Below are positions 11,151 to 45,528 of a stretch of 64,000 nucleotides of DNA, one piece after another. Numbering within the stretch: the first letter of the stretch is position 1; each line of letters opens with the position of its first letter. This DNA is from Candidatus Hinthialibacter antarcticus (lineage in GTDB: Bacteria > Hinthialibacterota > Hinthialibacteria > Hinthialibacterales > Hinthialibacteraceae). Below the pieces are notes generated by a model. That model did not search any database, was not told the DNA's origin, and saw only the letters and a program-made list of their open reading frames with translations. The DNA lies in assembly GCA_030765645.1 (NCBI GenBank), contig JAVCCE010000074.1, forward strand, positions 41,551 to 105,550, given 5' to 3'. Both the position numbers and the translations under genes were made by a program.

Positions 11151-11879
11151 ATGACGCCGATCCGCGCTCTCCTTTTTGATCTTGATGAAACCCTCATCAA
11201 AGACCGCGCCAGCACCATCCACTCACTCAACGCGGTCGTCCCAAAGATGCTTGAGCATGTCCCAACGCTGACGCACGACCAAATCCGCGCGGTTTTCGTG
11301 AAAACCAATAACTGGCATTGGGAAAACTTCGACGAATCGCCCATTAGCAAAATGAATGACCCATTAGAAACCCGCTCTTTTTTATGGTCATTGGCGCTAA
11401 AAGAACTGGGCGTCGAAGCCAACGGGCTTGCCAATGAGTTAGGACAAATCTATCAAGACGCGCGCCATGATTCGTTTGAACCCTATGAAGACGTCGCTGA
11501 ATTTCTGCCCGTTTTGCGCGAGCGCTATGCCCTCTATCTCGTCACCAATGGCAACCGCCTGATGCAGCGCCGTAAGTTAGAAACCACCGGCCTCACCGGA
11601 GGCTGGGAGGGCATTTTCATCGCGCAAGAACAGGGCGTCTCAAAGCCCAAGCCGCAATATTTTCAGCGCGTATTAAAAGCGGCGAAGGCTTCGCCTGATG
11701 AATGCCTGATGATCGGCGATAATCTAAACGCCGACATCCAGGGCGGCATCAACGCCGGCATCAAAACCGTCTGGATGAAGCGCCGCGACGATATGCCCGA
11801 ACATCCAGAGGTAAAACCAGACCACACGGTACAAAATTTAAAAGAACTCGTAGAGTTACTCGACAACCAATATGTCTAA
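11151..11879 (+). CDS. HAD-superfamily hydrolase (subfamily IA).
   Basis: 'LLFDLDETLI' motif I (DxD). 'LVTNG' motif II. 'GDNLNADIQGG' motif IV. Confidence 0.75.
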   Translation: MTPIRALLFDLDETLIKDRASTIHSLNAVVPKMLEHVPTLTHDQIRAVFVKTNNWHWENFDESPISKMNDPLETRSFLWSLALKELGVEANGLANELGQIYQDARHDSFEPYEDVAEFLPVLRERYALYLVTNGNRLMQRRKLETTGLTGGWEGIFIAQEQGVSKPKPQYFQRVLKAAKASPDECLMIGDNLNADIQGGINAGIKTVWMKRRDDMPEHPEVKPDHTVQNLKELVELLDNQYV

Positions 11880-12813
11880 CCAGAACCGCTCGTGGGTATT
11901 GGGCATCATCTGCGTAATCGGCGCCCAGTTTCTGTTCGGCACCACCTTCGCATTCAACAAATGGGTGATGAACCACAACATCGACCCCATCGCGCTGGGC
12001 TTTGCCCGCGCGTCGCTGGCTTCGGTTTTCATGGCGCCCTTCTTCTGGAGCGCCCGCAACACCACCCGCTGGACGCCCAAAGACTGGCGCCGGGTGGTCT
12101 TCATCGGCCTCGGCTTAAACGCCGTCGCCATTATTTGTGAATATATGGGAACCAACTTCACCAGCGCCTCCAACGCGACCCTGATTATCGCGACCGAATC
12201 GGTCTTTTCGGTGTTTCTCGCCGTGATCATTCTCAAAGAGACGCTTCACAAACAGACGGTAGTCGGCGGCGTGATCGCTCTGGCAGGCGTTGCGCTGGTG
12301 ATGTTTCGCGACATTATGCACTTTGAAGTCCACGGCGGCGCGGGCCTCTTCGGCGACGCTCTGGTGGTCGCTTCCGTTGTTTGTTGGGGTTTATTCACCA
12401 TCCTCAGCAAGAAGTTACTCAACCACTCCAACCCGATTTACACGCTGTTTTTCATTAACATATTCGCTTCGATTTCTTTGGGGATTGTCAGTGGAACACA
12501 AGGCACGCTGGCCCCCATGCTTGAAATGGACGCTTACACTTGGGCGGCGGTATTATATTTGGGGTTAATTTGCTCCGGAGGCGGTTTCTTGCTCTATTTC
12601 ACCGCGCTTAAACTTTTGCCCGCCTCAATCGTTGTTCTTACTCTGACGCTGATTCCGGTTTTTGGCGTCGTGTTTTCTATTGGATTGCTTGGCGAAGTAT
12701 TGACCCTGCCGCAAATAATCGGCGGAACATCCATCATCTGCGGGGTGACCTATGCTATGTGGCCAAGGGAAGCGCAGAAAGTCGTTAGCGAAGACGCACT
12801 GATCGGGCCGTAA
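11872..12813 (+). CDS. DMT-superfamily (EamA-like) transporter with 10 predicted TM segments.
   Basis: Two EamA-like halves with hydrophobic helices throughout. Overlaps the HAD gene stop by 8 nt, so the two are likely an operon. Confidence 0.7.
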   Translation: MSNQNRSWVLGIICVIGAQFLFGTTFAFNKWVMNHNIDPIALGFARASLASVFMAPFFWSARNTTRWTPKDWRRVVFIGLGLNAVAIICEYMGTNFTSASNATLIIATESVFSVFLAVIILKETLHKQTVVGGVIALAGVALVMFRDIMHFEVHGGAGLFGDALVVASVVCWGLFTILSKKLLNHSNPIYTLFFINIFASISLGIVSGTQGTLAPMLEMDAYTWAAVLYLGLICSGGGFLLYFTALKLLPASIVVLTLTLIPVFGVVFSIGLLGEVLTLPQIIGGTSIICGVTYAMWPREAQKVVSEDALIGP

Positions 12814-17050: not shown

Positions 17051-17056
17051 ACAAAA

Positions 17057-17722: not shown

Positions 17723-17781
17723 TTGATTTGTCCTGTCTGTTTTTTAGATTGGATAATGCGCGTTGATGAGCCAAGCGCAGA

Positions 17782-18213
17782 TCAAATCAATAGACAGGTT
17801 GTAGCAACACACGTTTGGAGGGTGGTATTTTGAAAATAGGATTGCGTATCGTTGAAACGAAATGATTGATAGCGAACAAGGATACGAAATTTGATTTGAG
17901 AATACGCATCCTTCGGATGGGGCTGTGCGTTAATACTTTGGTTCGAACTTGTTAAAACAATATCTGGAACCGGGCGGGCGTGAGCGATGTCAAATGAACA
18001 CTCACACAAACGATCGCTATCGCTTGTGTCTATGAATCTTCCCGCGTCGTTCAATTCAACCAGGGCTGACGCGTTGCCTCTTTCAACCTCACAACATGTT
18101 TCTTCATTAACATCACACAGACACAGATGTTCACTCGCTTCGCCAAGATGCCCAAAAACCAGCGAAAGTATACAGAGAGCGCAGGTCAGTGTGTTTAAAA
18201 ACCGTCGATTCAT
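17782..18213 (-). CDS. Hypothetical secreted Cys-rich protein.
   Basis: Signal-peptide-like N-terminus and 10 Cys. No recognisable RBS. AT-rich islet. Weak call. Confidence 0.3.
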   Translation of the reverse strand: MNRRFLNTLTCALCILSLVFGHLGEASEHLCLCDVNEETCCEVERGNASALVELNDAGRFIDTSDSDRLCECSFDIAHARPVPDIVLTSSNQSINAQPHPKDAYSQIKFRILVRYQSFRFNDTQSYFQNTTLQTCVATTCLLI

Positions 18214-18290
18214 ACTTGAAAGTATATTGTTTCCATCAACTTAAATCAACAGCTTTCGTTGCCGGGAGAGAGACGAGCGCGCAGATACGG

Positions 18291-18388
18291 CTGAACCTAG
18301 TGGCGAACCAAGGCGGCGCGCAACGGCGATAACTCTTGAGATAGGGTGGCAAGGGCAAGAACGAGCAGAGCGAGTTCAGCCCTTGAGG
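18291..18388. repeat. REP array immediately 3' of the RAYT gene.
   Basis: Contains motif 1 (TGGCGAACCAAGGCGGCGCGCAACGG) and motif 2 (GGGTGGCAAGGGCAAGAACGAGCAGAGCGAGTTCAGCCCTTGAGG). 18322-18386 is identical to 19250-19314. Confidence 0.7.
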
Positions 18389-18389
18389 G

Positions 18390-18947
18390 TTAGGCTTCCC
18401 AGTATTCCCACCAGCGATCAACTCGAAAGACTTTGTCATCATCTATTTCATAATTTCTAAAACTTGAATGAGGCCATTGACCGGGAGAATTGACAAGCCT
18501 TCGTACAACAGGGTTCTGATGGCAGTATGTAAGTTTCTCAATTAGTTTTTCTTGTGTGAATATATTAAAATCATAGAAACGCTCTTGCCACAATTTATTT
18601 TCTTCAACGCCCTTTTCTCGAAACGCTTTTAATACATTGATCGAAACATACCATTTTAACGCGCCTACAATTTTCGAAATTGGTTGCTCTTGTTTGGCAG
18701 CAAGTAAAAAATGCGCATGTTCAGGCATAATGACATACCCAAAAACAAAAAACTCTTTTTTATTGCGAATATGATCTATGGAATGAAGAACGATTTTGCG
18801 AATTTCAAATGAGTCAAAAAACGGTTTTCTTTGACAGCATGATGTAGTTACAAAATGAACGTGCCCTTTTTCGTTAATGCGAACAGGATGAACCTTGTTC
18901 TTGAAATCAGGATTCAGTAATGACGAATCGTGTTTTTTTAAATTCAT
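18390..18947 (-). CDS. REP-associated tyrosine transposase (RAYT, TnpA-REP; IS200/IS605 Y1 HuH family).
   Basis: 185 aa. 'GHVHFVTT' is the Y1 N-terminal motif. 'MPEHAHFLL' is the HuH motif. 'LTYCHQNPVVRRL' holds the catalytic Tyr upstream of NPV. Lower GC than surroundings, with REP arrays on both sides. Confidence 0.8.
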   Translation of the reverse strand: MNLKKHDSSLLNPDFKNKVHPVRINEKGHVHFVTTSCCQRKPFFDSFEIRKIVLHSIDHIRNKKEFFVFGYVIMPEHAHFLLAAKQEQPISKIVGALKWYVSINVLKAFREKGVEENKLWQERFYDFNIFTQEKLIEKLTYCHQNPVVRRLVNSPGQWPHSSFRNYEIDDDKVFRVDRWWEYWEA

Positions 18948-18975
18948 TTTAGACTTAAAATACGATGAAAGATTG

Positions 18976-19012
18976 CTTCAAGGGCTGGCCTTCGGCCTTG
19001 CCCTTGCCACCC
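18976..19012. repeat. REP (reverse orientation) immediately 5' of the RAYT gene: CTTCAAGGGCTGGCCTTCGGCCTTGCCCTTGCCACCC.
   Basis: Reverse complement of the motif-2 ends (GGGTGGCAAGGGCAAG...GCCCTTGAAG) with a different central loop. Confidence 0.65.
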
Positions 19013-19220
19013 AACATCCCTGAAAAAGAAAAACCCACCGAAGTAAGCGTGCAAAGCAGAGGCCCGGCGGGTGTACTAACTATAATATTACAAACATACA
19101 CGCAAATGTCCACGGTTATTACCATACACTTTAGGAAAACATATTTAAAACGTGCGAATTAAACACAGTGTAAACAAATATCAAGTATTTGAATAGCATA
19201 AAAATGCCAAAGAATAAGAT

Positions 19221-19316
19221 GAGCCGGGTGGCGAGCCAAGGCGTCGCGAAGCGGCGATAACTCTTGAGATAGGGTGGCAAGGGCAAGAACGAGCAGAGCG
19301 AGTTCAGCCCTTGAGG
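19221..19316. repeat. REP array (motif 1 plus motif 2), a near-duplicate of 18301-18388.
   Basis: GAGCCGGGTGGCGAGCCAAGGCGTCGCGAAGCGGCGATAACTCTTGAGATAGGGTGGCAAGGGCAAGAACGAGCAGAGCGAGTTCAGCCCTTGAGG. Confidence 0.7.
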
Positions 19317-19415
19317 TAATTTGCATTGAATTTGACATAGAGAAAACAAGTAAAAACAAAACCGGGGAAAAGCAATTCGCTCTCCCCCGGTTGGTTTTCG
19401 TATGCCTTTTTCCCG

Positions 19416-20678
19416 TTAGGGCATTGGGGTGGAAGGGATCGGCGCGGGCGGCATCTTGGCGTCGAAACCAATCGGGTTCGGGAAGATGTCGTGTTCCATA
19501 TTCCAGGCTTCTTCCCATTTCAGGTTCTTACCGGTATACGCTGCTTCGCGTCCCAGAATCGCGGTCATAGTGGTTTCGCAAATCTGCACCGCCTGGTTCC
19601 AGTAGGGGCCGTCTCCGCGAATGGAATCTTGCAGGTCTTTGTGCTCCTGCACATAGGCGTTCATGCCGCGTTCGCCCATATCCGCGCAATTGCTGATGCC
19701 GTTGCGGAACTTTTTGTTGGTTCCGAACACGCGCTCAGACACTTCGTTGGCCGATTTGTTCAAGTGACGGCAAAAGCTGAAAACGTGAACGCCATTGGGA
19801 TACTCAAAGTCACAGGAGAAGTTGTCCCAGATGTTGCCGTATTTTTCGATTTTGGGCTTCCAGCTGCGTCCACCGCTGGCGACGACGGAGATGGGATGCG
19901 AACCAAGCACCCAGTTCATTACGTCGAGATTGTGGATGTGTTGTTCGACGATGTTGTCGCCGCAGATCCAGCAGAAGTTATACCAGTTATACAGTTGGTA
20001 TTCGAGGTCGCCCTGGCCATCGCGGCGGTCGCGCGCGTGGGGCAGTCCGCCGTTCCAGTAGGCGCGTCCGGCGACGATTTCGCCCAAGGCGCCGTCTTGC
20101 AGCATCTTGACGGTTTCGACATATTCTTTTTGGTGACGGCGTTGGTTGCCGGTCACGATGTGTAATTTCAGACTTTCGGATTTTTTCGCGGCGGCGTGAA
20201 AGCGGCGAATGCCGTTGAAGTCGGTCGCGACCGGTTTTTCACAGAAGCAGTTAAGTTTGGCGTCAACAACGGCTTCGAAGTGTTCGGGACGGAACCCGGG
20301 AGGCGTCGCCAGAATCACATAGTCAGGCTTCATGGCGATGACTTTTTTGTAGGCGTCGAGGCCCCAGAAGGTGGTCTCGTCGTTGACTTTAATGCTTTCT
20401 TTGATATTTTCGTTGCTGCGCAAGCGTTGTACGCATCCCTTGGCGGTTTCTTCACGAAAATCAGCGACCGCTACCAGTTCGATGCTGTCGCCGCCCGCTT
20501 GGATGGCGTTTTCAGCCGCTTGGGTGCCGCGTCCGCCCGCGCCGATCACGGCGATGGTCAGTTTGTCTGCCGCCTGGGCTTTATTGGCAGCGGCAATTGT
20601 GCTGATCGCTGCGGCGCCCAAGGCTGATTTTCTGCCGAATTCACGGCGGGTCATGTCTGTTTTTTTTGATTCACTCAT
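19416..20678 (-). CDS. Gfo/Idh/MocA family oxidoreductase with Tat signal (paralog 3).
   Basis: 'MSESKKTDMTRREFGRKSALGAAAISTIAAANKAQA' Tat signal. 'IAVIGAGGRGTQ'. 'EKPVATD'. Start set at the ATG preceded by AAGGAG with a 7-nt spacer. The ORF-track start at 20783 lacks an RBS. Confidence 0.8.
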   Translation of the reverse strand: MSESKKTDMTRREFGRKSALGAAAISTIAAANKAQAADKLTIAVIGAGGRGTQAAENAIQAGGDSIELVAVADFREETAKGCVQRLRSNENIKESIKVNDETTFWGLDAYKKVIAMKPDYVILATPPGFRPEHFEAVVDAKLNCFCEKPVATDFNGIRRFHAAAKKSESLKLHIVTGNQRRHQKEYVETVKMLQDGALGEIVAGRAYWNGGLPHARDRRDGQGDLEYQLYNWYNFCWICGDNIVEQHIHNLDVMNWVLGSHPISVVASGGRSWKPKIEKYGNIWDNFSCDFEYPNGVHVFSFCRHLNKSANEVSERVFGTNKKFRNGISNCADMGERGMNAYVQEHKDLQDSIRGDGPYWNQAVQICETTMTAILGREAAYTGKNLKWEEAWNMEHDIFPNPIGFDAKMPPAPIPSTPMP

Positions 20679-21040
20679 GTCCAAACTCCTTCTTTGAGGC
20701 ATTCGCGTTGTAGTATTGGTTTCGGTCATTTTCCACCAACGGGCGACGCCCTTGGCCCCTTTGACCGAATGGATGGGCCGCAACGAGTTCGCGGTCTCCC
20801 CGATTCATTCAAACCGTTGCGCGCCAAATCAACGCGCATGGTCATTCAAATTATCACAGGGCGCGGACGAATTAAAGGCAATCAGCCCGGAGATAAACTC
20901 TTTTTTGTCGATCTGCTCTTCGACGCCAACACACGGAATTACCGCTTGACACAGTTAAAGGCGCGTCCATAGTATCCCAAAGCGTTTGATCTTACGCCGC
21001 GACCTGGAATCTACCTCTTTGACGAAGGCTGGAACACGCA

Positions 21041-21529
21041 TTGATGAGCGAGAGAATCATTCGGCGGGCGACGAAAGAAGACTTGCCTTTCGTGGTCGGT
21101 TTATGGAAAGAGATGATGAACCATCATCTCTCGGTCGACCCAAGGTTTGAGTTAGGGCCTGACAACGAAGGCGCCTATCTGGAATATTTATATTCCATCA
21201 TTGATAACTATGACTACGCGCTGTTCGTCGCCGAGCATGACGCCCGCATCGTCGGCTACACCATTGGGATGATTCTCGCCAACCCGCAAGTCTTTGCGTT
21301 GGGCCGATACGGTTTCATTGCCGAGATGAGTGTCAGCGCCGACTTACAGCGGCAAGGCGCCGGGCGCGAACTCTGGGAGCGGGTGCGGCATTGGTTTAAA
21401 CGGCGCGGCGTCAAAGTCATTCAACTCAACGTCTCGCCGCGCAACATAAAGGGATACGACTTTTGGAAACAGCTTGGATGCGATGAGTTTTTGCATATCC
21501 TATGGCACGACATCCCCAAAGACGCATAA
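21041..21529 (+). CDS. GNAT-family N-acetyltransferase.
   Basis: 'IAEMSVSADLQRQGAGRELWERV' is the acetyl-CoA-binding motif A (Q/RxxGxG/A). Confidence 0.7.
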   Translation: MMSERIIRRATKEDLPFVVGLWKEMMNHHLSVDPRFELGPDNEGAYLEYLYSIIDNYDYALFVAEHDARIVGYTIGMILANPQVFALGRYGFIAEMSVSADLQRQGAGRELWERVRHWFKRRGVKVIQLNVSPRNIKGYDFWKQLGCDEFLHILWHDIPKDA

Positions 21530-21598
21530 CGGAACCACAAAACATGCAACCTCGCGGCGCGTGATGCGCTGTGATGAATTCGGGAGTAATCAGTCCGT

Positions 21599-22495
21599 AT
21601 GACCTCGCCAACACAAACCGCCTTGGCCTTACTTGAAATTGCGCGCCCGAAGCAATGGGTAAAAAACGCCTTCGTCTTCGCGGCGTTAATTTTTTCGCAG
21701 AATATTTTTGATGCGGGCGCCGTGCTCAACGCGACCGCCGCGTTTGCGCTGTTTTGTCTTTACTCTTCGTGCGTCTATATGATGAACGACATCGCCGACA
21801 TTGAGCGAGACCGCCAGCATCCCAAAAAACGCAATCGCCCCCTGCCCTCAGGACGCCTACGCATCCCCACGGTCATCGTCGCCGCCGTGTCGCTCTTTTG
21901 CGCGGCGTCGGTTGGCTCGGCGCTTCTATCCTCCCATTTTCTCTATGTCGGGCTGGTGTATTTCGCCGCAAACATCGTCTATTCATTTATCTGCCGCTCT
22001 ATCGTCATTCTCGACGGCATGATTATCGCACTCGGTTTCTTGCTGCGGCTGTACGCGGGCGCCATCGTGATTGGCGCGGAGGTTTCAGATTGGTTGTATT
22101 TGTGCGGCCTGTTTGTTTCATTATTTCTGGCTTTCTGCAAGCGCCGCCAGGAACTTATTTTATTGGGCGAAGAAAGCGCCGGCGACCACCGCGCCATTCT
22201 CAAAGAATATTCCACCCAGTTTCTCGACCAGATCATCTCCATCGTCACCGCATCCACCGCCGTCACCTACTCGCTCTATTGTCTCGACAAGTCACAAACG
22301 GCCGACAACCATCACGACGGTTTAATGCTGACCATCCCCTTTGTTCTTTATGGCCTTTTGCGCTATCTATACTTGGTCTATCAGAAAGACGAGGGCGGAA
22401 ACCCCAGCGAATTATTGTTGTCGGACAAGCCAATTTTGATCAATGGCGTCCTATGGCTCGGCGTCGTTTATTGGGCTTTATATATCCGTGTTTAG
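21599..22495 (+). CDS. UbiA-family polyprenyl-phosphate phosphoribosyltransferase-like (decaprenyl-phosphate 5-phosphoribosyltransferase / DPPR-synthase-like).
   Basis: 'KQWVKNAFVFAALIFS' and 'NDIADIERDRQHPKKRNRPLPSG' resemble the DPPR-synthase (Rv3806c-type) variant of the UbiA Asp-rich motif, rather than UbiA or MenA proper. 8-9 TM helices. Confidence 0.65.
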   Translation: MTSPTQTALALLEIARPKQWVKNAFVFAALIFSQNIFDAGAVLNATAAFALFCLYSSCVYMMNDIADIERDRQHPKKRNRPLPSGRLRIPTVIVAAVSLFCAASVGSALLSSHFLYVGLVYFAANIVYSFICRSIVILDGMIIALGFLLRLYAGAIVIGAEVSDWLYLCGLFVSLFLAFCKRRQELILLGEESAGDHRAILKEYSTQFLDQIISIVTASTAVTYSLYCLDKSQTADNHHDGLMLTIPFVLYGLLRYLYLVYQKDEGGNPSELLLSDKPILINGVLWLGVVYWALYIRV

Positions 22496-22697
22496 CACCG
22501 CAAACAAAAATCTTGTGTTAGACAAAAAAACAGATAGCCTAAAAGTAGAAAATCAGCTATTGACTAGATTCAATCCGCGTGTAATTTACGCGCAAGAACA
22601 CTCGCCGAATGAAACGGCGGGAAGCACAGGAAATCATTAGATGATCTCACCCTACAGACGACCCTACCGTAGGCTGGGAGATCAGAGGAGAGCGGCC

Positions 22698-23129
22698 ATG
22701 CAGACAGTCCATCCGCGGTTGAGGAACGCAGTGGTTCCAGTTCAATTCTTCGTCGCAACAAAACTTACAGAAAGCGCAGTCGCCATTTGGTCGGTTGACC
22801 CAAGCGGTCAGGTACAGCCCGCCTTGCTGGCGATTAACTATGAAAGCGATGAATCGCTTTCCTCTCCTGACGACGTGATCTTCTCGGATTGGGACAATGA
22901 AGATGACGACTATGACTACGACGATGGTTTAGATGACGACCTCGATGACGATGACGACGATGATCTGGACGACGACGACGACGACGATGATGACGATGAT
23001 GATGATGATGACTTAGATGACGACCTCGATGATGATGACGACGACGAAGAGGACGAAGATGAAGAGGACGGCTTCGATGACGACATTGACGATATCGAGA
23101 TTGGCGCCGATGACGAAGATGAATTTTAG
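22698..23129 (+). CDS. Extremely acidic Asp-rich (poly-D) low-complexity protein, 143 aa.
   Basis: GAGGAG SD with a 7-nt spacer before the ATG at 22698. The C-terminal 95 aa is about 70% Asp/Glu ('DDDLDDDDDDDLDDDDDDDDDDDDDDD'). GAT/GAC codons alternate. A strong terminator follows directly. Confidence 0.5.
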   Translation: MQTVHPRLRNAVVPVQFFVATKLTESAVAIWSVDPSGQVQPALLAINYESDESLSSPDDVIFSDWDNEDDDYDYDDGLDDDLDDDDDDDLDDDDDDDDDDDDDDDLDDDLDDDDDDEEDEDEEDGFDDDIDDIEIGADDEDEF

Positions 23130-23137
23130 CGATTACG

Positions 23138-23183
23138 CGTAAGGGCATAGCGAGGCTGCGCCCTTACGTTATGTTTCGTTATT
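23138..23183. terminator. Bidirectional rho-independent terminator between the poly-D gene (+) and the FAD oxidoreductase (-).
   Basis: 9-bp stem CGTAAGGGC (23138-23146) / GCCCTTACG (23160-23168), then T-rich 'TTATGTTTCGTTATT'. Confidence 0.55.
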
Positions 23184-23204
23184 GGAATTGATGATTTGCC
23201 GTAC

Positions 23205-24533
23205 TTATGCGGTCAGCGCTTCGAGTTCCCCAAGATGCACCAGCAACTCTTCCGCCATTTTGATGCTGTAATTCATGCCGCGATCTTCGGGATAAATCTG
23301 CGCCATGGTGCAAAGATACAGGCCCTGCAAGGGCGTATCAAACGAGGGGCGCCGCTTCGAGTAATGCAGCCCAATCACCGGCTGAGTAAACTCGGCCTTT
23401 GAAATCGTCGCGCACTGGATCCACTCGCGCTGAAACGCCGGAAACATTTTCTCTAATCCCTGAATGAAGATTTCCTGCACGTCAGGCAGTTTCATGCTGA
23501 AGTAGGGGTGGTCGGCGTTCAAATAGCGCGATAAATAAATGGGGACCAGCCCGTCATATCCCGGGTCGTTAAACAAGCGCGTGTGTTCAATCACCGCGAC
23601 GAACGGCGCGTCAGGATGGGTCACGTTCAGCCAGTAATAGGGCGAGATCGAACGATCAAGCCCCATCGCCATGGTGACGTTGGCCTGATAGGGAACCTGG
23701 TCAACATCGCGGCGGTAATCGTCCGGCAGTTCCGGCGCCATTTCGAGAAAACTGGGGATGCTGGGCGTCACAATCACACGGTCAAAAGTTTCCTCGCCGG
23801 AACGAGTACGAACCACCAAGCCGTCCGGCGTTTTTTCGATGCGCTTGACGATCTCACGAAAGCGAAACTCGCCGCCCCAGCCTTCGATTTTTTTGCCCAT
23901 GCCTTCATAAATCTGCGCCCAGCCGTCTTTCATATAACCCAGGCTTTCGCCGCCGGTTTCTGAGCGGGTGCCGCCGCGCAATTTGATCTTGCCCCAAAAC
24001 CACACAGCAGACACTTCGCGATAGCGGTCGCCGAATTTTGAGCGCAACAGCGGTTCCCACAAAATGCGGTAGGCAGGCTCGCCCATTTCGCGAATGATAA
24101 AATCTTCCGCCGTGATCGACTCGAGTTCTTCAAACGACTCGCGGCGCCGCATCCGCAACACTGCGAGACCGACGCGGATACGCGACAAAAACGGCAGCGG
24201 CTTAAACAGCAAAAGGTCTTTGGGTTTGGTGAATGGATATAACTTGCCCGCGTGTTCAAAGCCGACCGACGAGTCGCACCAATGCAATTTGTCCGTCAGC
24301 CCTAAACGCCCGGCGTAAGCCTGCACGTGGGTATCGCTGGTGAAGATGTGGTGATAAAAACGGTCAAGCGAGGTCTTGCCAAACGGGATATCCGCCGCCA
24401 GCCCGCCCAGGCCGTTCCATTTTTCATACACAGCGACGGAATGACCGTTCTGGGCCAAATGCCAGGCGAGCGTACATCCAGCGGCGCCGCCGCCGACGAT
24501 GGCGTATTTAAGCGGCTTACTTGGCTTTGTCAT
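23205..24533 (-). CDS. NAD(P)/FAD-dependent oxidoreductase (amine-oxidase / protoporphyrinogen-oxidase-like Rossmann family).
   Basis: 'KYAIVGGGAAGCTLAWHLAQNGHSVAVYEK' is a GxGxxG dinucleotide-binding motif followed by an acidic residue. 442 aa. Overlaps the cimA stop by 17 nt, so they are likely co-transcribed. Confidence 0.6.
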   Translation of the reverse strand: MTKPSKPLKYAIVGGGAAGCTLAWHLAQNGHSVAVYEKWNGLGGLAADIPFGKTSLDRFYHHIFTSDTHVQAYAGRLGLTDKLHWCDSSVGFEHAGKLYPFTKPKDLLLFKPLPFLSRIRVGLAVLRMRRRESFEELESITAEDFIIREMGEPAYRILWEPLLRSKFGDRYREVSAVWFWGKIKLRGGTRSETGGESLGYMKDGWAQIYEGMGKKIEGWGGEFRFREIVKRIEKTPDGLVVRTRSGEETFDRVIVTPSIPSFLEMAPELPDDYRRDVDQVPYQANVTMAMGLDRSISPYYWLNVTHPDAPFVAVIEHTRLFNDPGYDGLVPIYLSRYLNADHPYFSMKLPDVQEIFIQGLEKMFPAFQREWIQCATISKAEFTQPVIGLHYSKRRPSFDTPLQGLYLCTMAQIYPEDRGMNYSIKMAEELLVHLGELEALTA

Positions 24534-26091
24534 CTAATAACAACTTATATTCAATGCTGTCGACCAGCGCTTCCCAGGAGGCTTCGATAATGTTCTCCGA
24601 CACGCCGATGGTGATCCAATCCGACACGCCGTCGGTTGATTCGATCATAACCCGCGTCTTGGCGGCGGTGCTGCGTCCCGTGTCGATGATGCGCACCTTA
24701 AAGTCGGTGAGGCGCACCTCGCTCAGCTGTGGGTATTTTTCTAACAGCGCCTTGCGCAGCGCATTGTCGAGCGCATTGACGGGGCCGTCGCCTTCGCCCG
24801 CCATAAAGAACGAATCGCCGTCGACCGTCAGCCGCACCGTCGCTTCCGACCATAAGTCGCCTGATGAATGTTGGTCGACCAGCACCCGGTACGCCACCAT
24901 ATCGAAGTGTGAGTTATACTCGCCCAGTTCTTTACGGATCAGCAACTCAAGCGAGGCTTCGGCGGCTTCAAAAAAGTAGCCTTCGTTTTCGAGCGATTTA
25001 ACTTTCGTCAGAACATTCTTGGCCACCGGCGACGATTTATCGACTTCGATGCCCATGTTTTTCAGCATGTGAAAAATATTCGACTGCCCCGAGAGTTCCG
25101 ACACCAAAATGCGCTGGCGGTTGCCGACCATGGCGGGGTCGATGTGTTCGTAGGTTTTCGAGTCGCGCTGCACCGCGCTGACGTGGATGCCGCCCTTGTG
25201 GGCGAAGGCGCTCATGCCAACGAAAGGCTGGTTGTGCTTGAGCGGTACGTTGGCCAGCTCACTGATGAACATCGACAGCCCGGCAATGGTTTGCATTTGT
25301 TCAGGCTCGATGACGTCATAGCCCATTTTATACATCAGGTTGGGCAACACGCTGGAGAGATCGGCGTTGCCGCAGCGCTCGCCGAAGCCGTTGAAGGTGC
25401 CCTGCACGTGCGTACAACCCGCTTTGATCGCCGCCAGTGAATTGGCGATCCCGCAGCCCGCGTCATTATGGGCGTGAATGCCCAACGCGCCGTCGAGTTC
25501 ATTGCGCATCTTTGTAACGATCTCAGTGATCTCATGCGGCATGGTCCCGCCGTTGGTGTCGCAAAACGCCAAGACGTCGGCGCCCGCTTCACACGCGGCC
25601 TTCACGGTCTGCAACGCATAGTCGGGATTGTTCTTATAGCCGTCAAAAAAATGTTCGGCGTCATAAATCACGATGCGCCCGTTCTCTTTGAGAAAACGGA
25701 CCGTGTCGCGAATCATGTCGAGATTGTCTTCCAATTTAATGCGCAGCGCATTGGTGACGTGTAGGTCCCAGGTTTTGCCGAAGATCGACACCGCTGCGGT
25801 TTCCGCTTCGATCAACGCGCAGACGTTGGGGTCTTCTTCGACCTTGTTGCGCGCATGGCGGGTGCTGCCGAAAGCGCATAACTTGGCGTGTTTGAATTGA
25901 ACGTCTTTGGCCCGTTGAAAAAACCCGATGTCTTTCGGGTTAGACCCCGGCCAACCGCCTTCGATAAAATCAATGCCAAAATCGTCCAGGCGCTGCGCGA
26001 TGCGCAGTTTGTCTTCTAAGGACAGATTTACGCCTTCGCCCTGCGTACCATCACGCAAGGTTGTATCAAACGTCTCAATTTTCCCCGCCAA
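24517..26091 (-). CDS. cimA: (R)-citramalate synthase / 2-isopropylmalate-synthase family (CimA-type, about 524 aa).
   Basis: 'ETFDTTLRDGTQGEGVNLSLEDKLRIAQRLDDFGIDFIEGGWPGSNP' and 'HAHNDAGCGIANSLAAI' are HMGL-like DRE-TIM barrel motifs. Length and the C-terminal LeuA-dimer region fit CimA. Confidence 0.75.
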   Translation of the reverse strand: MAGKIETFDTTLRDGTQGEGVNLSLEDKLRIAQRLDDFGIDFIEGGWPGSNPKDIGFFQRAKDVQFKHAKLCAFGSTRHARNKVEEDPNVCALIEAETAAVSIFGKTWDLHVTNALRIKLEDNLDMIRDTVRFLKENGRIVIYDAEHFFDGYKNNPDYALQTVKAACEAGADVLAFCDTNGGTMPHEITEIVTKMRNELDGALGIHAHNDAGCGIANSLAAIKAGCTHVQGTFNGFGERCGNADLSSVLPNLMYKMGYDVIEPEQMQTIAGLSMFISELANVPLKHNQPFVGMSAFAHKGGIHVSAVQRDSKTYEHIDPAMVGNRQRILVSELSGQSNIFHMLKNMGIEVDKSSPVAKNVLTKVKSLENEGYFFEAAEASLELLIRKELGEYNSHFDMVAYRVLVDQHSSGDLWSEATVRLTVDGDSFFMAGEGDGPVNALDNALRKALLEKYPQLSEVRLTDFKVRIIDTGRSTAAKTRVMIESTDGVSDWITIGVSENIIEASWEALVDSIEYKLLLDDKAK

Positions 26092-43560: not shown

Positions 43561-45528
43561 GTGAACGAATACAAACGTCGTCATTTCAACGATTTCCCAA
43601 CGCGTTTGGTCACGCGCTTTTGGCTGCCAGCGGCGCTTTTTCTCTTCGTGTTCGCTGCGGCGCGAATCACCCCGCCCGACCTCGCGTTTTATTACGCCTA
43701 TGGGCATTCCATGCTATATGACATCGATTTTTACTTCGCGCCCCAATTCGCCGCCTTTCCCTTCGCCAACCACGAACTCTACCTGTCGGCCCACGGCCTG
43801 CCCGCCAACGACTGGCCGATGGGCGCTGGCGTCCTCTGGGCGCCCTTCATGTTGTTCGCATCCATTTTGCGGATCGGACTCAACCTTTTCGGCTTTTCAA
43901 TCGAACCCGGCGGATATGCGTGGTTCGATCAATGGGTCATTACGTTTAGCGCCTCTTGGCTTTTTGGCGCAGGAACCCTATACGCCTCTTATCGCTTGGC
44001 GCGTTCCCACAAAATCAGCCATGCGAATGCGGTCTGGGCTTGCGCGCTGATGGCGGCGGGCAGTTCGCTCACCTATCATCTGTACGTCAATTCCGCCGAC
44101 TCACACCCGCCCTCAGCGTTCTTCATCGTCCTGAGTTTGTTGGCGTGGCAGTCATACAAACAGACCCCGCGCCTCGCCTTCGCCCTGTTTGCCGGGGCCG
44201 CGTTGGGAATCGCCGGGCTGGTGCGCCCCCACAATCTGTTATGGGGACTCACGCCGCTTCTCGATTGGGCCATCAACCCCGGCGATCAAAAACGCGTTAC
44301 CGTCCGGCCCGCTCATATCGCCGTCTTCATCCTAGCGACGCTTGCCGCGTTTCTGCCCCAACTGATGGCTTGGAAGGCGCTCTACGGCTCCTGGTTCGCC
44401 CTGCCGCGTTCTGGCGACGTGCTCTGGCTTCACCCGCACCTCTATGAGATGTTGTTTTCTGACTTCCACGGCATGATCTCCTGGTCGCCGCTGTTCGGCT
44501 TGGGCATCGCGGGCTTGCTCACTCAACGCCGCGCCCTGCCTTATTTGCTGCCGATGCTGCTGACCATCTACATTTATTCCTGCAACATCGCCTGGTGGGC
44601 GGGCGGCTCGTTCGGCAACCGCCGCATGGTGAGTTGTGCGCCGATCTTCATTTTAGGATTAGCCTGGCTCTTACAAGCAACGCCCAAAGCGTGGTTCAAA
44701 GGCTTCGCCATTCTCTGCGCCGTCTGGACGTGGCTGTTGTTGGTTGCAGAAATGGGCGGCGCGATTCAGCTCGACCACTATCAATCGTGGAGGGAGATAC
44801 TGGCCGTTATCCCGCAGGGAGTTCCGCCCGGTCTCAGCGCCCATTTCACCCGTATTGATTGGGGCGAACACGCCCTGTTGAGATTCATCGGCGCAGTCAG
44901 CGTCTGCGCGGCGATGCTTGTTCTCCTATGGCTGCATTGCCGGTTTGCGACGATCAAACGGACCGCTTACGTTTTCACGGCGGGACTCCTGCTTCTCTGC
45001 GCCTGGTCTGGCGCCGCCCTGCTGCGAACCCCGAACGCAATCAACCCAAACGAACTCACGGATTACATCCCCCGCGACCGCTTCACCTGGGTGGTGTATT
45101 TTGAAAAAGGCTTTTATGAAATGCAAACCCGCCAATACACCGACGGCCTCGAAAGCATGTTGGCGGCGGCCATCACCGAACCCAGCCACCCGCAACCCTG
45201 GATGTACATCGGCGCCAATCTGGAGTTCCACCAGATGCATGAGTTGGCCTATCTTTATTTTAAACAAGCGATGAGTTACGGCTCGCGCACATCGACGTTT
45301 TTCACCTTTTATCTCAACTCAATCAACCGTCAGTTGCGAACAGCGCCCACCGCTTTGCTATACAATGAACGCGGCGTAGTCTTGACCTTGATGAAACAAT
45401 ATGACCAGGCCGTCGCTGACTTTGAACGCGCACTTAAAATGGACCCGGACTATAATCCTGCCATAGAGAATCTAGACACCGTCAACAAACGCGCCGCCGG
45501 ACAATCGGCCCCGATGCGCTGGGAATAA
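43561..45528 (+). CDS. Polytopic membrane protein, GT-C-fold glycosyltransferase-like, with C-terminal TPR repeats.
   Basis: More than 10 predicted TM helices. 'AYGHSMLYDIDFYF' extracytoplasmic loop near the first TM. C-terminal 'YDQAVADFERALKMDPDY' TPR. GTG start with an AGGAT RBS. Immediately upstream of lpxB. Confidence 0.45.
   Translation: MNEYKRRHFNDFPTRLVTRFWLPAALFLFVFAAARITPPDLAFYYAYGHSMLYDIDFYFAPQFAAFPFANHELYLSAHGLPANDWPMGAGVLWAPFMLFASILRIGLNLFGFSIEPGGYAWFDQWVITFSASWLFGAGTLYASYRLARSHKISHANAVWACALMAAGSSLTYHLYVNSADSHPPSAFFIVLSLLAWQSYKQTPRLAFALFAGAALGIAGLVRPHNLLWGLTPLLDWAINPGDQKRVTVRPAHIAVFILATLAAFLPQLMAWKALYGSWFALPRSGDVLWLHPHLYEMLFSDFHGMISWSPLFGLGIAGLLTQRRALPYLLPMLLTIYIYSCNIAWWAGGSFGNRRMVSCAPIFILGLAWLLQATPKAWFKGFAILCAVWTWLLLVAEMGGAIQLDHYQSWREILAVIPQGVPPGLSAHFTRIDWGEHALLRFIGAVSVCAAMLVLLWLHCRFATIKRTAYVFTAGLLLLCAWSGAALLRTPNAINPNELTDYIPRDRFTWVVYFEKGFYEMQTRQYTDGLESMLAAAITEPSHPQPWMYIGANLEFHQMHELAYLYFKQAMSYGSRTSTFFTFYLNSINRQLRTAPTALLYNERGVVLTLMKQYDQAVADFERALKMDPDYNPAIENLDTVNKRAAGQSAPMRWE

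What the first reader, a model, noticed from the sequence alone, without database searches (positions are those of the whole stretch)
21599..24533. DPPR-synthase-like UbiA enzyme plus FAD oxidoreductase outside an actinobacterial context, in a genome window with two GT-C-like membrane proteins
The UbiA-family protein carries the 'NDIADIERDRQHPKKRNRPLPSG' variant, typical of decaprenyl-phosphate phosphoribosyltransferases rather than UbiA or MenA. In mycobacteria this step feeds the lipid-linked arabinose donor made with an FAD oxidase (DprE1). Here an FAD-dependent oxidoreductase is convergent, with the poly-D protein in between. The window also encodes two large GT-C-fold-like polytopic proteins (43561-45528 with TPR; 61269->64000 with NHL repeats), a class that uses polyprenyl-phosphate sugar donors. 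Together these suggest an uncharacterised lipid-linked pentose/sugar glycosylation route in a non-actinobacterial lineage.
Basis: inference. Interest (0 to 1): 0.5.

Follow-up and report, generated by a model that had tools for sequence, protein, structure and literature searches.

The report
Phosphoribosyl-lipid synthase beside orphan flavoenzyme
A Candidatus Hinthialibacter genome carries a membrane enzyme that very probably makes a lipid-linked ribose donor. That kind of enzyme is already known outside mycobacteria. The flavoenzyme next to it is not a DprE1 relative but belongs to an unstudied family that, in many other phyla, sits inside lipid-linked glycosylation gene clusters.

Summary
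21599-22495(+) encodes a 298-aa UbiA-superfamily protein. It passes two NCBIfam equivalog cut-offs for decaprenyl-phosphate phosphoribosyltransferase. Its only PDB match is Rv3806c. It keeps 8 of 11 Rv3806c Mg/PRPP-contact residues identically and 3 conservatively. 23205-24533(-) encodes a convergent FAD enzyme, with a conserved poly-Asp/Glu ORF between the two genes. The organism is Candidatus Hinthialibacter antarcticus (Hinthialibacterota; relatives are often labelled Omnitrophota).

- The FAD enzyme is not DprE1-like. It has a PPOX/phytoene-desaturase/MAO fold (TM 0.8, 14-18% identity) and belongs to the uncharacterised family NF005560/PRK07233.
- UbiA/FAD adjacency occurs only in this lineage, inside a wider syntenic block. 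There the FAD gene overlaps cimA.
- No UbiA lies near 78 FAD homologs from other phyla. No FAD lies near 80 UbiA homologs.
- In 52 of those 78 loci, however, the FAD family sits with GT2 polyprenyl-phosphate sugar synthases, LPG_synthase_TM flippase-like proteins, GtrA, or GT-C-like proteins. These include the TIGR03663/Agl23-like+NHL type found at 61269 onwards in this window.

Lipid-linked pentofuranose routes outside Actinobacteria are already established (Citrobacter, Pseudomonas). The UbiA gene is therefore a new member of a known kind. The flavoenzyme family is the real lead.

The parts
21599..22495 (+). Polyprenyl-phosphate 5-phosphoribosyltransferase (PPPRS/DPPRS-type UbiA-superfamily enzyme), 298 aa
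   Evidence: PF01040. NF008977 and NF008978 score above their cut-offs. The only PDB matches are the Rv3806c entries 8j8j/8j8k, best E 8.7e-32. Catalytic and PRPP residues are conserved: R16, K22, Y60, N63, D67, K77, R80, N125, Y128, R133, F147.
22698..23129 (+). Conserved small acidic protein. It has an N-terminal domain of about 70 aa, then a poly-Asp/Glu tail ending in Phe. The longest ORF starts at 22641. Function unknown.
   Evidence: Present between the UbiA and FAD genes in every lineage relative examined. The domain-plus-tail layout and the C-terminal F are the same throughout. No Pfam or NCBIfam hit.
23205..24533 (-). FAD-dependent oxidoreductase of the uncharacterised family NF005560/PRK07233. 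PPOX/PDS/MAO fold, cytoplasmic, with no TM segment or signal peptide.
   Evidence: AlphaFold model with pLDDT 92. Foldseek top hits are PPOX 2ivd, PDS 5mog and MAO at TM about 0.8 and 14-18% identity. The family's neighbourhoods in other phyla are described.
21041..21529 (+). GNAT acetyltransferase, 70 nt upstream of UbiA on the same strand. Conserved partner in the syntenic block; role unknown.
   Evidence: Synteny.
19416..20783 (-). GFO/IDH/MocA oxidoreductase with a Tat-like N-terminus, divergent from GNAT-UbiA. It is part of the conserved block, but it is one of three such genes in the window.
   Evidence: Synteny.
24517..26091 (-). Citramalate synthase (context only). It overlaps the FAD gene start by 17 nt, so the FAD gene is the last gene of a housekeeping transcription unit.
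   Evidence: TIGR00977, 782.8 bits. The overlap or close spacing is conserved in relatives.
61269..64000 (+). TIGR03663 (Agl23-like) / PMT_2 polytopic membrane protein with a C-terminal NHL beta-propeller. It runs off the window end. It is the same family as the GT-C-like partner of the FAD family in other phyla.
   Evidence: blastp E 1e-19 to 1e-29 against FAD-adjacent proteins in 14 loci; in several (e.g. L041, L066, L070, L090) the match also covers the C-terminal NHL-containing part.
43561..45528 (+). GT-C-like polytopic protein with a C-terminal TPR, 7 nt upstream of lpxB (45536-46663). Candidate lipid A/LPS-directed transferase that uses a polyprenyl-phosphate sugar donor.
   Evidence: The pairing with lpxB is conserved in relatives of 42-47% identity.
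11151..12813 (+). HAD phosphatase (11151-11879) overlapping an EamA/DMT transporter (11872-12813). These are only candidates for the missing 5'-phosphatase and flippase.
   Evidence: In relative L007 this pair abuts the MocA-GNAT-UbiA block. EamA or SMR genes lie directly upstream of UbiA homologs in 7 metagenome loci, but they are only 23-26% identical to this one.

Best explanation
Shown by sequence comparison: the gene at 21599-22495 encodes a genuine polyprenyl-phosphate 5-phosphoribosyltransferase (Rv3806c / PPPRS type).

Inferred from family knowledge:
- At the cytoplasmic face of the inner membrane it transfers ribofuranose-5-phosphate from PRPP to the cell's polyprenyl phosphate.
- The 5'-phosphate is then removed and the lipid is flipped. 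The enzymes for these two steps were not identified here.
- The resulting polyprenyl-phospho-pentofuranose serves as donor for periplasmic, GT-C-type glycosylation of an envelope glycan, lipid A/LPS or a protein.

The convergent neighbour at 23205-24533 is not a DprE1 homolog. It is a cytoplasmic PPOX/phytoene-desaturase-fold flavoenzyme of the uncharacterised family PRK07233. In at least eight other phyla this family is operonic with GT2 polyprenyl-phosphate sugar synthases, LPG_synthase_TM flippase-like proteins, and TIGR03663/DUF2298/PMT_2 membrane proteins. I therefore read it as an accessory enzyme that acts on a polyprenyl-phosphate-linked substrate before the substrate is flipped.

In Hinthialibacterota and the 'Omnitrophota'-labelled relatives, the only lipid-sugar synthase next to it is the UbiA-type enzyme. 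Coupling of the two enzymes is plausible. However, it rests on lineage-restricted synteny plus the family's associations elsewhere, not on an operon. I put direct coupling at about one in three.
For: UbiA assignment:
- NF008977 scores 266.7 bits (cut-off 234) and NF008978 scores 230.1 (cut-off 207). All other UbiA-family models score 42 bits or less.
- The only PDB matches are Rv3806c entries, best E 8.7e-32.
- The Rv3806c residues shown by structure and mutagenesis to bind Mg2+, pyrophosphate, ribose and 5'-phosphate are R22, K28, Y70, N73, D77, K87, R90, Q135, Y138, K143 and Y157 (PMC10994848). They align to R16, K22, Y60, N63, D67, K77, R80, N125, Y128, R133 and F147.
- Ten of the positions checked (the eight identical contacts plus the two further motif aspartates, D74 and D81) are invariant across 21 diverse family members.

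Precedent: PPPRS-based pentofuranose glycosylation works in Gram-negative bacteria (PMC11127046).

FAD enzyme:
- Family membership. Model pLDDT 92. Fold hits. No TM segment.
- In 52 of 78 non-lineage genome loci (33 of 46 with full flanks), a GT2 (28), LPG_synthase_TM (22, one of them fused to the FAD protein), GtrA (4) or GT-C-like homolog (25) lies within 4 kb. At least one is always on the same strand.
- The GT2 representative resembles PgfS and ArnC.
- The window's TIGR03663+NHL protein is homologous to the FAD-adjacent GT-C-like proteins of 14 loci.

Adjacency: UbiA-acidic ORF-FAD was found in every lineage relative inspected, down to 55% UbiA identity.
Against: - The FAD gene is convergent to UbiA, not co-transcribed with it. 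It overlaps cimA, so it appears to be expressed with an isoleucine-pathway gene.
- The conserved block also holds unrelated genes (GNAT, MocA, cimA, S8 peptidase). The adjacency may therefore be inherited gene order only.
- None of the 78 FAD loci outside the lineage has a UbiA homolog. None of 80 UbiA loci from metagenomes has a FAD homolog.
- The nearest outgroup FAD genes have no glycan context.
- No phosphatase of the Rv3807c (PAP2) type, GtrA, MATE, GT2 or LPG_synthase_TM gene was found in the window ORFs scanned.
- The GT-C-like genes are 21 and 37 kb away.
- In the wider UbiA family the recurrent neighbours are DUF362, STAS, a coiled-coil protein, GT4s and EamA, not GT-C.
- No biochemical data exist for any member outside Actinobacteria and Proteobacteria.
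Confidence: 0.5

Rival explanations
1. Coincidental synteny. The UbiA enzyme and the flavoenzyme work in unrelated pathways, and they are neighbours only because gene order is conserved in this lineage. The FAD enzyme serves either a GT2/TIGR03663 pathway encoded elsewhere in the genome or something unrelated to glycosylation. The UbiA product is used independently.
For: The two genes are convergent. The FAD gene overlaps cimA. The whole six-gene block is syntenic, including the housekeeping genes. There is no cross-association in 78 + 80 loci from other lineages. The nearest FAD outgroups stand alone. The genome seems to have little operon structure: the GT-C-like genes sit among amino-acid, polyamine and CTP genes.
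Against: The two families share one theme independently of each other, namely polyprenyl-phosphate-linked sugars. The pair stays together while the genes upstream of MocA and, in L005, downstream of cimA change.
Confidence: 0.3
2. The flavoenzyme is a functional analog of DprE1. It oxidises C2' of polyprenyl-phospho-ribose, and a reductase then completes epimerisation to a lipid-linked arabinofuranose (or another pentofuranose) donor.
For: It lies next to a PPPRS throughout the lineage. Elsewhere its family associates with lipid-linked sugar synthases. In known systems, epimerases diversify the pentose after it is attached to the lipid (PMC11127046). The family has an invariant basic motif, W-x-K-x-K-L-R-G-G-x-R, and many invariant Tyr, Trp, His, Asp and Arg residues. 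That would suit a sugar-phosphate substrate; this last point is inference only.
Against: The fold is different from DprE1. No DprE2-like reductase is adjacent. In other phyla the family partners with GT2 enzymes, which make hexose-type donors, so a ribose-specific role cannot be the family's general function. The lineage includes anaerobes, in which an oxidase would need a different electron acceptor (established knowledge, not tested here).
Confidence: 0.12
3. The flavoenzyme modifies the lipid rather than the sugar. It saturates, desaturates or isomerises a double bond of the polyprenyl phosphate carrier, for example giving a dolichol-like alpha-saturated carrier. The carrier is the only feature common to its GT2 partners and its UbiA-type partner.
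For: Its closest structural relatives include phytoene desaturase. By sequence, its second-best NCBIfam model is HpnE, at 86 bits. Both enzymes act on isoprenoid chains. It partners with chemically different sugar-attaching enzymes. One member is fused to a lipid-flippase-like LPG_synthase_TM domain.
Against: Identity to any isoprenoid enzyme is only 14-18%, and PPOX and MAO match equally well. The many conserved polar and aromatic residues are unusual for a pure hydrocarbon-binding site (inference). No paper on the family was found.
Confidence: 0.15
4. The UbiA homolog is an ordinary aromatic or lipid prenyltransferase (UbiA, MenA, heme O synthase or DGGGP synthase type) that automatic annotation has mislabelled.
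For: The Pfam assignment is only to the general UbiA family. No activity has been measured in this phylum.
Against: Scores against the heme O, UbiA, DGGGPS, EboC and ChlG models are 16-42 bits, against 230-267 for the DPPRS models. The phosphoribose-binding residues, which the Rv3806c structure paper says are not conserved in the rest of the UbiA superfamily, are present.
Confidence: 0.03

Closest known systems
Mycobacterial DPA pathway: Rv3806c (DPPRS), Rv3807c, DprE1/DprE2, Rv3789, Emb/Aft GT-C enzymes
   Same: The UbiA-type phosphoribosyltransferase has the same length as Rv3806c (298 vs 302 aa), the same NDxxDxxxD motif and the same PRPP-binding residues. GT-C-like membrane proteins are encoded in the genome.
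   Different: No DprE1 (VAO-fold), DprE2 (SDR), PAP2 phosphatase or GtrA-type gene was found in the window ORFs scanned. The neighbouring flavoenzyme has an unrelated fold. The genes are not clustered. The host is a diderm-type bacterium that carries lpxB.
Three-component pentofuranose glycosylation systems of Gram-negative bacteria (Citrobacter youngae O1/O2 ORF15-ORF14-ORF12, with or without the SDR epimerase ORF13; Pseudomonas aeruginosa pilin D-Araf system), PMC11127046
   Same: A non-actinobacterial PPPRS uses PRPP. The expected downstream logic is the same: dephosphorylation, optional epimerisation on the lipid, flipping, then GT-C transfer.
   Different: There is no fused HAD phosphoribose-phosphatase domain, no MATE flippase, and no GT136-type GT-C or SDR epimerase in the locus. 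The locus is not a glycan gene cluster. The accessory redox enzyme candidate is a PPOX/PDS-fold flavoprotein, which that work does not describe.
Gtr-type / CsbB-YfhO-type / archaeal Agl22-Agl23 hexose systems (GT2 polyprenyl-phosphate sugar synthase + small flippase + GT-C-like protein)
   Same: In other phyla the FAD family sits in exactly this kind of cassette: a GT2 resembling PgfS/ArnC, GtrA or LPG_synthase_TM, and TIGR03663 (Agl23 family), DUF2298 or PMT_2 proteins. The window encodes a TIGR03663 member.
   Different: In the window no GT2, GtrA or LPG_synthase_TM gene is present. A flavoenzyme component is not part of the described systems (literature searches).
Protoporphyrinogen oxidase / phytoene desaturase / CrtI / HpnE / monoamine oxidase flavoenzymes
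   Same: The overall fold is shared, including the N-terminal FAD-binding Rossmann motif.
   Different: Identity is only 14-18%. It is a separate NCBIfam family with its own invariant motifs (W-x-K-x-K-L-R-G-G, Y-P-E-D-R-G-x-N). No tetrapyrrole, carotenoid or hopanoid genes were noted beside it.

Membership tests
Polyprenyl-phosphate 5-phosphoribosyltransferase (DPPRS/PPPRS, Rv3806c family) | Scores above the curated equivalog cut-off of a DPPRS model and far above other UbiA-superfamily models | tested here: met
   NF008977 scores 266.7 (cut-off 234) and NF008978 scores 230.1 (cut-off 207). The next unrelated UbiA model scores 42 bits. The actinobacterial model NF008976 scores 146, below its cut-off of 474.
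Polyprenyl-phosphate 5-phosphoribosyltransferase (DPPRS/PPPRS, Rv3806c family) | Mg2+-binding N-D-x-x-D-x-x-x-D motif at the end of TM2 / cytoplasmic loop 1 (Rv3806c N73, D77) | tested here: met
   N63-D64-I-A-D67-I-E-R-D71. Invariant in 21 family members.
Polyprenyl-phosphate 5-phosphoribosyltransferase (DPPRS/PPPRS, Rv3806c family) | Basic cluster binding the PRPP pyrophosphate (Rv3806c R22, K87, R90, K143, plus Y138) | tested here: met
   R16, K77, R80, R133 (K to R) and Y128.
Polyprenyl-phosphate 5-phosphoribosyltransferase (DPPRS/PPPRS, Rv3806c family) | Phosphoribose-binding residues that are absent from prenyl-transferring UbiA enzymes (Rv3806c K28, Y70, Q135, Y157) | tested here: met
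   K22, Y60, N125 (Q to N, conservative) and F147. Y157 is Phe in some mycobacteria, according to PMC10994848.
Polyprenyl-phosphate 5-phosphoribosyltransferase (DPPRS/PPPRS, Rv3806c family) | PRPP-dependent transfer of ribose-5-phosphate to a polyprenyl phosphate | not testable with these tools
   Needs a membrane assay like the one in PMC11127046.
DprE1 (decaprenylphosphoryl-beta-D-ribose 2'-oxidase) | VAO/PCMH-type FAD_binding_4 domain with a DprE1-type substrate domain | tested here: not met
   The FAD protein matches Amino_oxidase, NAD_binding_8 and DAO only. The fold search returns PPOX, PDS and MAO. No FAD_binding_4 protein was found among the window ORFs scanned.
DprE1 (decaprenylphosphoryl-beta-D-ribose 2'-oxidase) | Paired DprE2 short-chain reductase | tested here: not met
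   No adh_short/SDR gene was found among the window ORFs scanned. The rest of the genome was not available.
Three-component pentofuranose glycosylation system (PMC11127046) | PPPRS gene present | tested here: met
   See the rows above.
Three-component pentofuranose glycosylation system (PMC11127046) | Phosphoribose 5'-phosphatase, either a fused HAD PRP domain or a separate enzyme | tested here: inconclusive
   The UbiA protein has no extra domain (298 aa). There is no PAP2 gene in the window. A HAD hydrolase at 11151-11879 resembles pyrimidine 5'-nucleotidases, scores below cut-off, and lies 9.7 kb away.
Three-component pentofuranose glycosylation system (PMC11127046) | Dedicated flippase (MATE, or SMR/GtrA type) encoded with the synthase | tested here: not met
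   None is adjacent. The only candidate is the EamA gene at 11872-12813.
Three-component pentofuranose glycosylation system (PMC11127046) | GT-C glycosyltransferase encoded in the same locus | tested here: not met
   The GT-C-like genes lie 21 and 37 kb away among housekeeping genes. In one relative (L008) a weak PMT_2 protein, a GT4 and a LegB-like dehydratase lie just upstream of the block.
NF005560 / PRK07233 FAD oxidoreductase family | Scores above the family cut-off over its full length | tested here: met
   450.6 bits against a cut-off of 252, covering residues 9-432 of 442.
NF005560 / PRK07233 FAD oxidoreductase family | Usual genomic context found here: GT2 polyprenyl-phosphate sugar synthase, LPG_synthase_TM or GtrA, and a GT-C-like protein within 4 kb | tested here: not met
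   This context is present in 52 of 78 loci from other phyla but absent from the window and from relatives' loci. A homolog of the usual TIGR03663 partner lies 37 kb away.
GT-C-like membrane proteins (PMT_2 / TIGR03663) | Polytopic N-terminal module matching a GT-C family model, with conserved acidic residues in the first extracytoplasmic loop | tested here: met
   Met for 61269 onwards: PMT_2 E 2.5e-12 and TIGR03663 258.5 bits. Weaker for 43561-45528: remote PMT_2-bearing homologs, weak Foldseek hits to GT-C enzymes only, invariant D40 and near-invariant D56. Agl23 itself is reported to be a flippase rather than a transferase (PMC11182771).

The most novel reading that the evidence does not exclude
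PRK07233-type flavoenzymes are an unrecognised fourth component of polyprenyl-phosphate-sugar glycosylation systems. They would chemically remodel the lipid-linked donor on the cytoplasmic face before it is flipped. In Hinthialibacterota the enzyme has switched partner from a GT2 hexose-lipid synthase to the UbiA-type phosphoribosyl-lipid synthase. There it would act as a non-homologous analog of DprE1 and create a new lipid-linked pentofuranose donor for GT-C enzymes such as the lpxB-linked one.
Probability: 0.15. Interest if true: 0.7.

Novelty: new member of a known kind. Interest (0 to 1): 0.4.

Why it matters
If the UbiA enzyme works as predicted, Hinthialibacterota and the 'Omnitrophota'-type bacteria decorate their envelope with pentofuranose from a lipid-linked donor. 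These bacteria are uncultured, and nothing is known of their surface chemistry. That result would extend an already known mechanism to a new phylum.

The more useful outcome is the flavoenzyme family. It is annotated only as 'hypothetical' or 'NAD(P)/FAD-dependent oxidoreductase'. In Bacillota, Chloroflexota, Cyanobacteria, Pseudomonadota, Bdellovibrionota, Gemmatimonadota, Acidobacteriota and Bacteroidota it recurs inside GT2 / flippase-like / GT-C cassettes. A redox or isomerase step on lipid-linked sugars, or on their carrier, is known only for DprE1/E2 and a few SDR epimerases. A second, unrelated enzyme class doing this would interest glycobiologists. It can be tested in cultured carriers such as Paenibacillus selenitireducens, Novosphingobium aquimarinum, Tropicimonas species and Cyanothece sp. 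BG0011.

Tried and rejected
1. DprE1 homology of the FAD enzyme: rejected on domains and fold.
2. A pan-phylum UbiA-FAD gene pair: rejected. tblastn with the window UbiA against 80 FAD loci found hits only in the 2 Omnitrophota-labelled loci. tblastn with the FAD protein against 80 UbiA loci from metagenomes found none.
3. DprE1/DprE2, Amino_oxidase or GT-C as common neighbours of non-actinobacterial UbiA homologs: not seen among 147 nearest neighbour ORFs. The commonest families there are DUF362, radical SAM, EamA, GT4 and SDR.
4. The closest outgroup FAD genes (P0157, P0159, P0160): no informative context.
5. GT2, LPG_synthase_TM, GtrA, DUF2298 (by tblastn) and PAP2 (by Pfam) in the window, and the first four in relatives' loci: absent.
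6. Literature on DUF2298, PRK07233, TIGR03663, and on FAD oxidoreductases together with GtrB or GT-C: nothing relevant to the FAD family. The Antarctic Omnitrophota paper does not mention Hinthialibacter.
7. Promoter and terminator scan of 20700-24700: not above the shuffled expectation, uninformative.
8. phmmer of GT-C-like protein 1 against PDB: only its TPR part matches.

Caveats:
- Neighbour ORFs in fetched loci were called crudely (first start codon, greedy longest ORF).
- TM counts come from a Kyte-Doolittle window.
- Each scan kept only the 80 best-matching loci, and many contigs are short. Frequencies are therefore approximate.

Full report
**What is there**

The three ORFs of the finding are present as described.
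- UbiA-superfamily protein: 21599-22495(+), 298 aa.
- Poly-Asp/Glu ORF: 22641-23129(+).
- FAD oxidoreductase: 23205-24533(-), 442 aa, convergent with UbiA.

The immediate surroundings:
- A GNAT gene (21041-21529) lies 70 nt upstream of UbiA on the same strand.
- A MocA oxidoreductase with a Tat-like N-terminus (19416-20783) is divergent from GNAT-UbiA.
- On the other side, the FAD gene is the last gene of a minus-strand run: aspartate kinase, S8 peptidase, citramalate synthase, FAD.
- The citramalate synthase gene overlaps the FAD start codon by 17 nt.

The rest of the window is ordinary chromosomal sequence. It holds Lon, AccA, SecDF, lpxB, arginine, histidine and threonine biosynthesis genes, CTP synthase and a SpeD-SpeE fusion. 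The product of 43561-45528 is 100% identical to a protein of a Candidatus Hinthialibacter antarcticus MAG. NCBI places that genus in the phylum Ca. Hinthialibacterota. Close relatives in the databases are mostly labelled Omnitrophota or Omnitrophica.

**The UbiA homolog**

It scores above the curated cut-offs of two NCBIfam equivalog models named decaprenyl-phosphate phosphoribosyltransferase. NF008977 gives 266.7 bits (cut-off 234) and NF008978 gives 230.1 (cut-off 207). Models for heme O synthase, 4-hydroxybenzoate prenyltransferase, DGGGP synthase, EboC and chlorophyll synthase give 16-42 bits.

Its only matches among solved structures are the two M. tuberculosis Rv3806c entries, best E 8.7e-32.

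The Rv3806c cryo-EM study (PMC10994848) identifies these ligands:
- Mg2+: N73 and D77.
- PRPP pyrophosphate: R22, K87, R90, K143 and Y138.
- Ribose and 5'-phosphate: K28, Y70, Q135 and Y157.

The study notes that the phosphoribose site is not conserved in the rest of the UbiA superfamily. In the HMMER alignment these residues map to R16, K22, Y60, N63, D67, K77, R80, N125, Y128, R133 and F147. Eight are identical and three are conservative. One of the conservative changes is the Tyr-to-Phe variant already seen in some mycobacteria. Ten of the positions checked (the eight identical contacts plus the two further motif aspartates, D74 and D81) are invariant in an alignment of 21 diverse relatives.

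I assign the protein as a polyprenyl-phosphate 5-phosphoribosyltransferase with about 0.8 confidence.

The family is very large outside Actinobacteria. There were 7570 hits at E<=1e-10 among the 8000 candidates scored, and the few that carry a source name are labelled either with the DPPRS name or (by JGI) as 4-hydroxybenzoate polyprenyltransferase.

**The flavoenzyme**

Pfam assigns Amino_oxidase, NAD_binding_8 and DAO. NCBIfam assigns NF005560/PRK07233, which is named only 'hypothetical protein', at 450.6 bits against a cut-off of 252. The next model is HpnE at 86 bits.

An AlphaFold model built on a 20-sequence alignment is confident (pLDDT 92, pTM 0.91). Foldseek against the PDB returns protoporphyrinogen oxidases, rice phytoene desaturase and monoamine oxidases, at TM about 0.8 but only 14-18% identity.

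DprE1 is a VAO-type (FAD_binding_4) enzyme, so the two are not homologous. No FAD_binding_4 or SDR gene was found among the window ORFs scanned. The protein has no signal peptide or hydrophobic segment, so it should act in the cytoplasm or at the inner face of the membrane.

**Is the UbiA-FAD pair meaningful?**

Within the lineage the order MocA | GNAT-UbiA-acidic ORF | FAD-cimA was found in every relative inspected. UbiA identity in these ranges from 92% down to 55%. Sixteen pairs of contig lengths are shared between the UbiA and FAD homolog lists, including contigs of only 5-6 kb. Genes outside this six-gene core differ between relatives.

Outside the lineage the association disappears.
- A scan of species-representative genomes with a FAD-family alignment gave 80 loci. 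Only the two Omnitrophota-labelled loci had a UbiA homolog within 10 kb.
- A metagenome scan seeded with a distant UbiA family member gave 80 loci, and none had a FAD homolog.
- UbiA homologs from KSB3 and another lineage also lack the FAD gene.
- The nearest FAD outgroups, at 45-50% identity, stand alone.

The pair is thus a lineage-restricted piece of conserved gene order. The two genes are convergent, and the FAD gene appears to be co-transcribed with cimA.

**What the FAD family does elsewhere**

I clustered the ORFs within 6 kb of the 80 FAD loci and annotated cluster representatives. The results:
- The most frequent neighbour is a GT2 with two C-terminal TM helices. It is present in 28 loci, at a median of 102 nt upstream on the same strand. 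It resembles PgfS and the ArnC undecaprenyl-phosphate sugar transferase.
- Next come LPG_synthase_TM (MprF-flippase-like) proteins, in 22 loci. One of them is fused to the N-terminus of the FAD protein (L028).
- Then come large polytopic proteins of the DUF2298, PMT_2/TIGR03663 and PTPS_related families, in 25 loci.
- GtrA is present in 4 loci.

Counted conservatively, 52 of 78 loci outside the lineage have at least one of these within 4 kb, always with at least one on the FAD strand. For loci with full 4-kb flanks the figure is 33 of 46. Typical operons read GT2-LPG_synthase_TM-FAD-GT-C.

The carriers span Bacillota, Chloroflexota, Cyanobacteria (including the reduced spheroid-body genomes of Rhopalodia), Pseudomonadota, Bdellovibrionota, Gemmatimonadota, Acidobacteriota and Bacteroidota. 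A genome has only a handful of such genes, so this is a strong association. I found no paper on the family.

So the flavoenzyme is tied to lipid-linked glycosylation.

**The GT-C-like proteins**

The protein starting at 61269 carries PMT_2, an NHL propeller and TIGR03663 ('flippase activity-associated protein Agl23') at 258.5 bits. It is homologous to the polytopic proteins that sit next to the FAD gene in 14 loci of other phyla, at E 1e-19 to 1e-29. In several of these loci the match also covers the C-terminal NHL-containing region. Haloarcula Agl23 is reported as a lipid-linked sugar flippase (PMC11182771), so the family may flip rather than transfer.

The protein at 43561-45528 is less clear. 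Pfam sees only TPR. However:
- Its remote homologs carry PMT_2.
- D40 is invariant and D56 nearly invariant in the first loop.
- The membrane part of a confident model (pLDDT 89) hits only GT-C enzymes, though weakly.
- It is followed after 7 nt by lpxB, and this pair is conserved in relatives of 42-47% identity that have different upstream genes. That makes it a candidate lipid A/LPS-directed transferase.

Both genes are far from the UbiA/FAD pair, at 21 and 37 kb, so they give no linkage evidence.

**Most likely mechanism**

Shown by sequence comparison:
- The UbiA gene has every sequence hallmark of a PRPP-dependent polyprenyl-phosphate phosphoribosyltransferase.
- The FAD gene belongs to a PPOX/PDS-fold family that is genomically tied to polyprenyl-phosphate sugar cassettes.

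Inferred:
- The UbiA enzyme makes polyprenyl-P-ribofuranose-5-P.
- An unidentified phosphatase and flippase process it. The HAD-EamA pair at 11151-12813 is the only candidate. It abuts the block in relative L007, and EamA or SMR genes precede UbiA homologs in seven metagenome loci. The similarity to the window's EamA is weak, however.
- A GT-C-type enzyme then transfers the pentofuranose to an envelope acceptor.

The flavoenzyme probably acts on a polyprenyl-phosphate-linked substrate before flipping. It may act on the sugar (oxidation, epimerisation or ring change) or on the polyprenyl chain. I cannot decide between these.
- The isoprenoid-acting structural relatives, and the fact that the family's partners attach different sugars, favour the lipid.
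- The invariant basic loop and the many invariant aromatic and polar residues favour a sugar-phosphate.

I put direct coupling to the UbiA product at about one in three. The specific DprE1-analog reading is at about 0.12-0.15.

**Comparison with what is known, and novelty**

PPPRS-dependent pentofuranose glycosylation outside Actinobacteria has been demonstrated in Citrobacter youngae. That system uses a PPPRS-HAD fusion, a MATE flippase and a GT136 GT-C, with an SDR epimerase for xylofuranose. It has also been proposed for P. aeruginosa pilin arabinosylation, and further examples were predicted bioinformatically (PMC11127046).

The window's gene is a new member of that known enzyme kind, in a new phylum. 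It lacks the clustered partners that define a three-component system: the flippase and GT-C criteria are not met in the locus, and the phosphatase criterion is inconclusive.

In the wider non-actinobacterial family, the common neighbours are DUF362, STAS, a coiled-coil protein, GT4s, EamA, radical SAM and SDR genes. DprE1 and GT-C genes are not among them. The biology of most of this family is therefore still open.

The flavoenzyme family's association with GT2 / flippase-like / GT-C cassettes is, as far as the searchable literature shows, undescribed. It is the most interesting lead to come out of this finding.

**Verdict**

- Observation: confirmed.
- Interpretation: partly supported.
- Novelty: new member of a known kind.
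- Interest: 0.4, carried mainly by the flavoenzyme-family lead rather than by the window's own locus.

Noticed in passing
window 22641/22698-23129 (+): A small acidic protein is conserved between UbiA and the FAD gene in all lineage relatives. It has a non-repetitive N-domain of about 70 aa and a 'WDDEDD' motif. These are followed by 60-90 residues of almost pure Asp/Glu, always ending in Phe (DDF, DEF, EDF or EVF). It has no family match. The layout recalls acidic-tail proteins with an aromatic C-terminal tip, but its function is unknown.
   Followed up: partly
window 43561-45528 (+) and 45536-46663 (+); L174 6001-9104; L175 6001-9086: The GT-C-like TPR protein is followed within 7 nt by lpxB. 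The pair is conserved in relatives of 42-47% identity even though their upstream genes differ. This suggests a lipid A/LPS-directed, ArnT-like transferase.
   Followed up: partly
L013-L090 (e.g. L020 7939-11275; L033; L063; L075; L076; L028 8852-11308; L029 and L038): A recurrent cassette, GT2 - LPG_synthase_TM - PRK07233 flavoenzyme - TIGR03663/DUF2298/PMT_2 membrane protein, occurs across at least 8 phyla. Examples include one LPG_synthase_TM-FAD fusion and the reduced genomes of the Rhopalodia cyanobacterial endosymbionts. No literature on it was found.
   Followed up: yes
L094-L173 (e.g. L124 1271-2581; L138 6608-6946; L160 1771-2841; L123 2221-3168; L111 248-616) and L009 9137-9628: Non-actinobacterial DPPRS-like UbiA genes from soil and sediment metagenomes repeatedly sit with a DUF362 protein directly downstream and a STAS anti-sigma-antagonist-like gene upstream. 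They also sit with an unannotated coiled-coil protein, GT4 glycosyltransferases, and EamA or SMR-type transporters. This context differs from both the mycobacterial and the Citrobacter systems.
   Followed up: partly
window 12869-19350: This stretch is absent in relative L007, where HAD-EamA abut MocA-GNAT-UbiA, so it is a stretch of variable gene content. It holds a 3-keto-disaccharide hydrolase, a MocA oxidoreductase, GyrI-like and GDSL genes, a pseudopilin with an N-terminal methylation motif, and an IS200-like Y1 transposase (18390-18947).
   Followed up: no
window 50294-56764 (-): A 2156-aa ORF has no Pfam match. An ORF of similar size (2184 aa) occupies the same position in relative L174.
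   Followed up: no
window 59377-60741 (+): A single ORF fuses an S-adenosylmethionine decarboxylase domain to spermidine synthase (a SpeD-SpeE fusion).
   Followed up: no
window 18-1484 (+) and 1544-3889 (-): Two large ORFs (488 and 781 aa) have no Pfam match at E<=0.001.
   Followed up: no
L008 120-5011: In one Omnitrophota-labelled relative, four glycan-related genes lie immediately upstream of the MocA-GNAT-UbiA block: a weak PMT_2 protein, a methyltransferase, a GT4 and a LegB-like NAD-dependent 4,6-dehydratase. This is the only glycan-type context seen next to the block in the lineage.
   Followed up: partly
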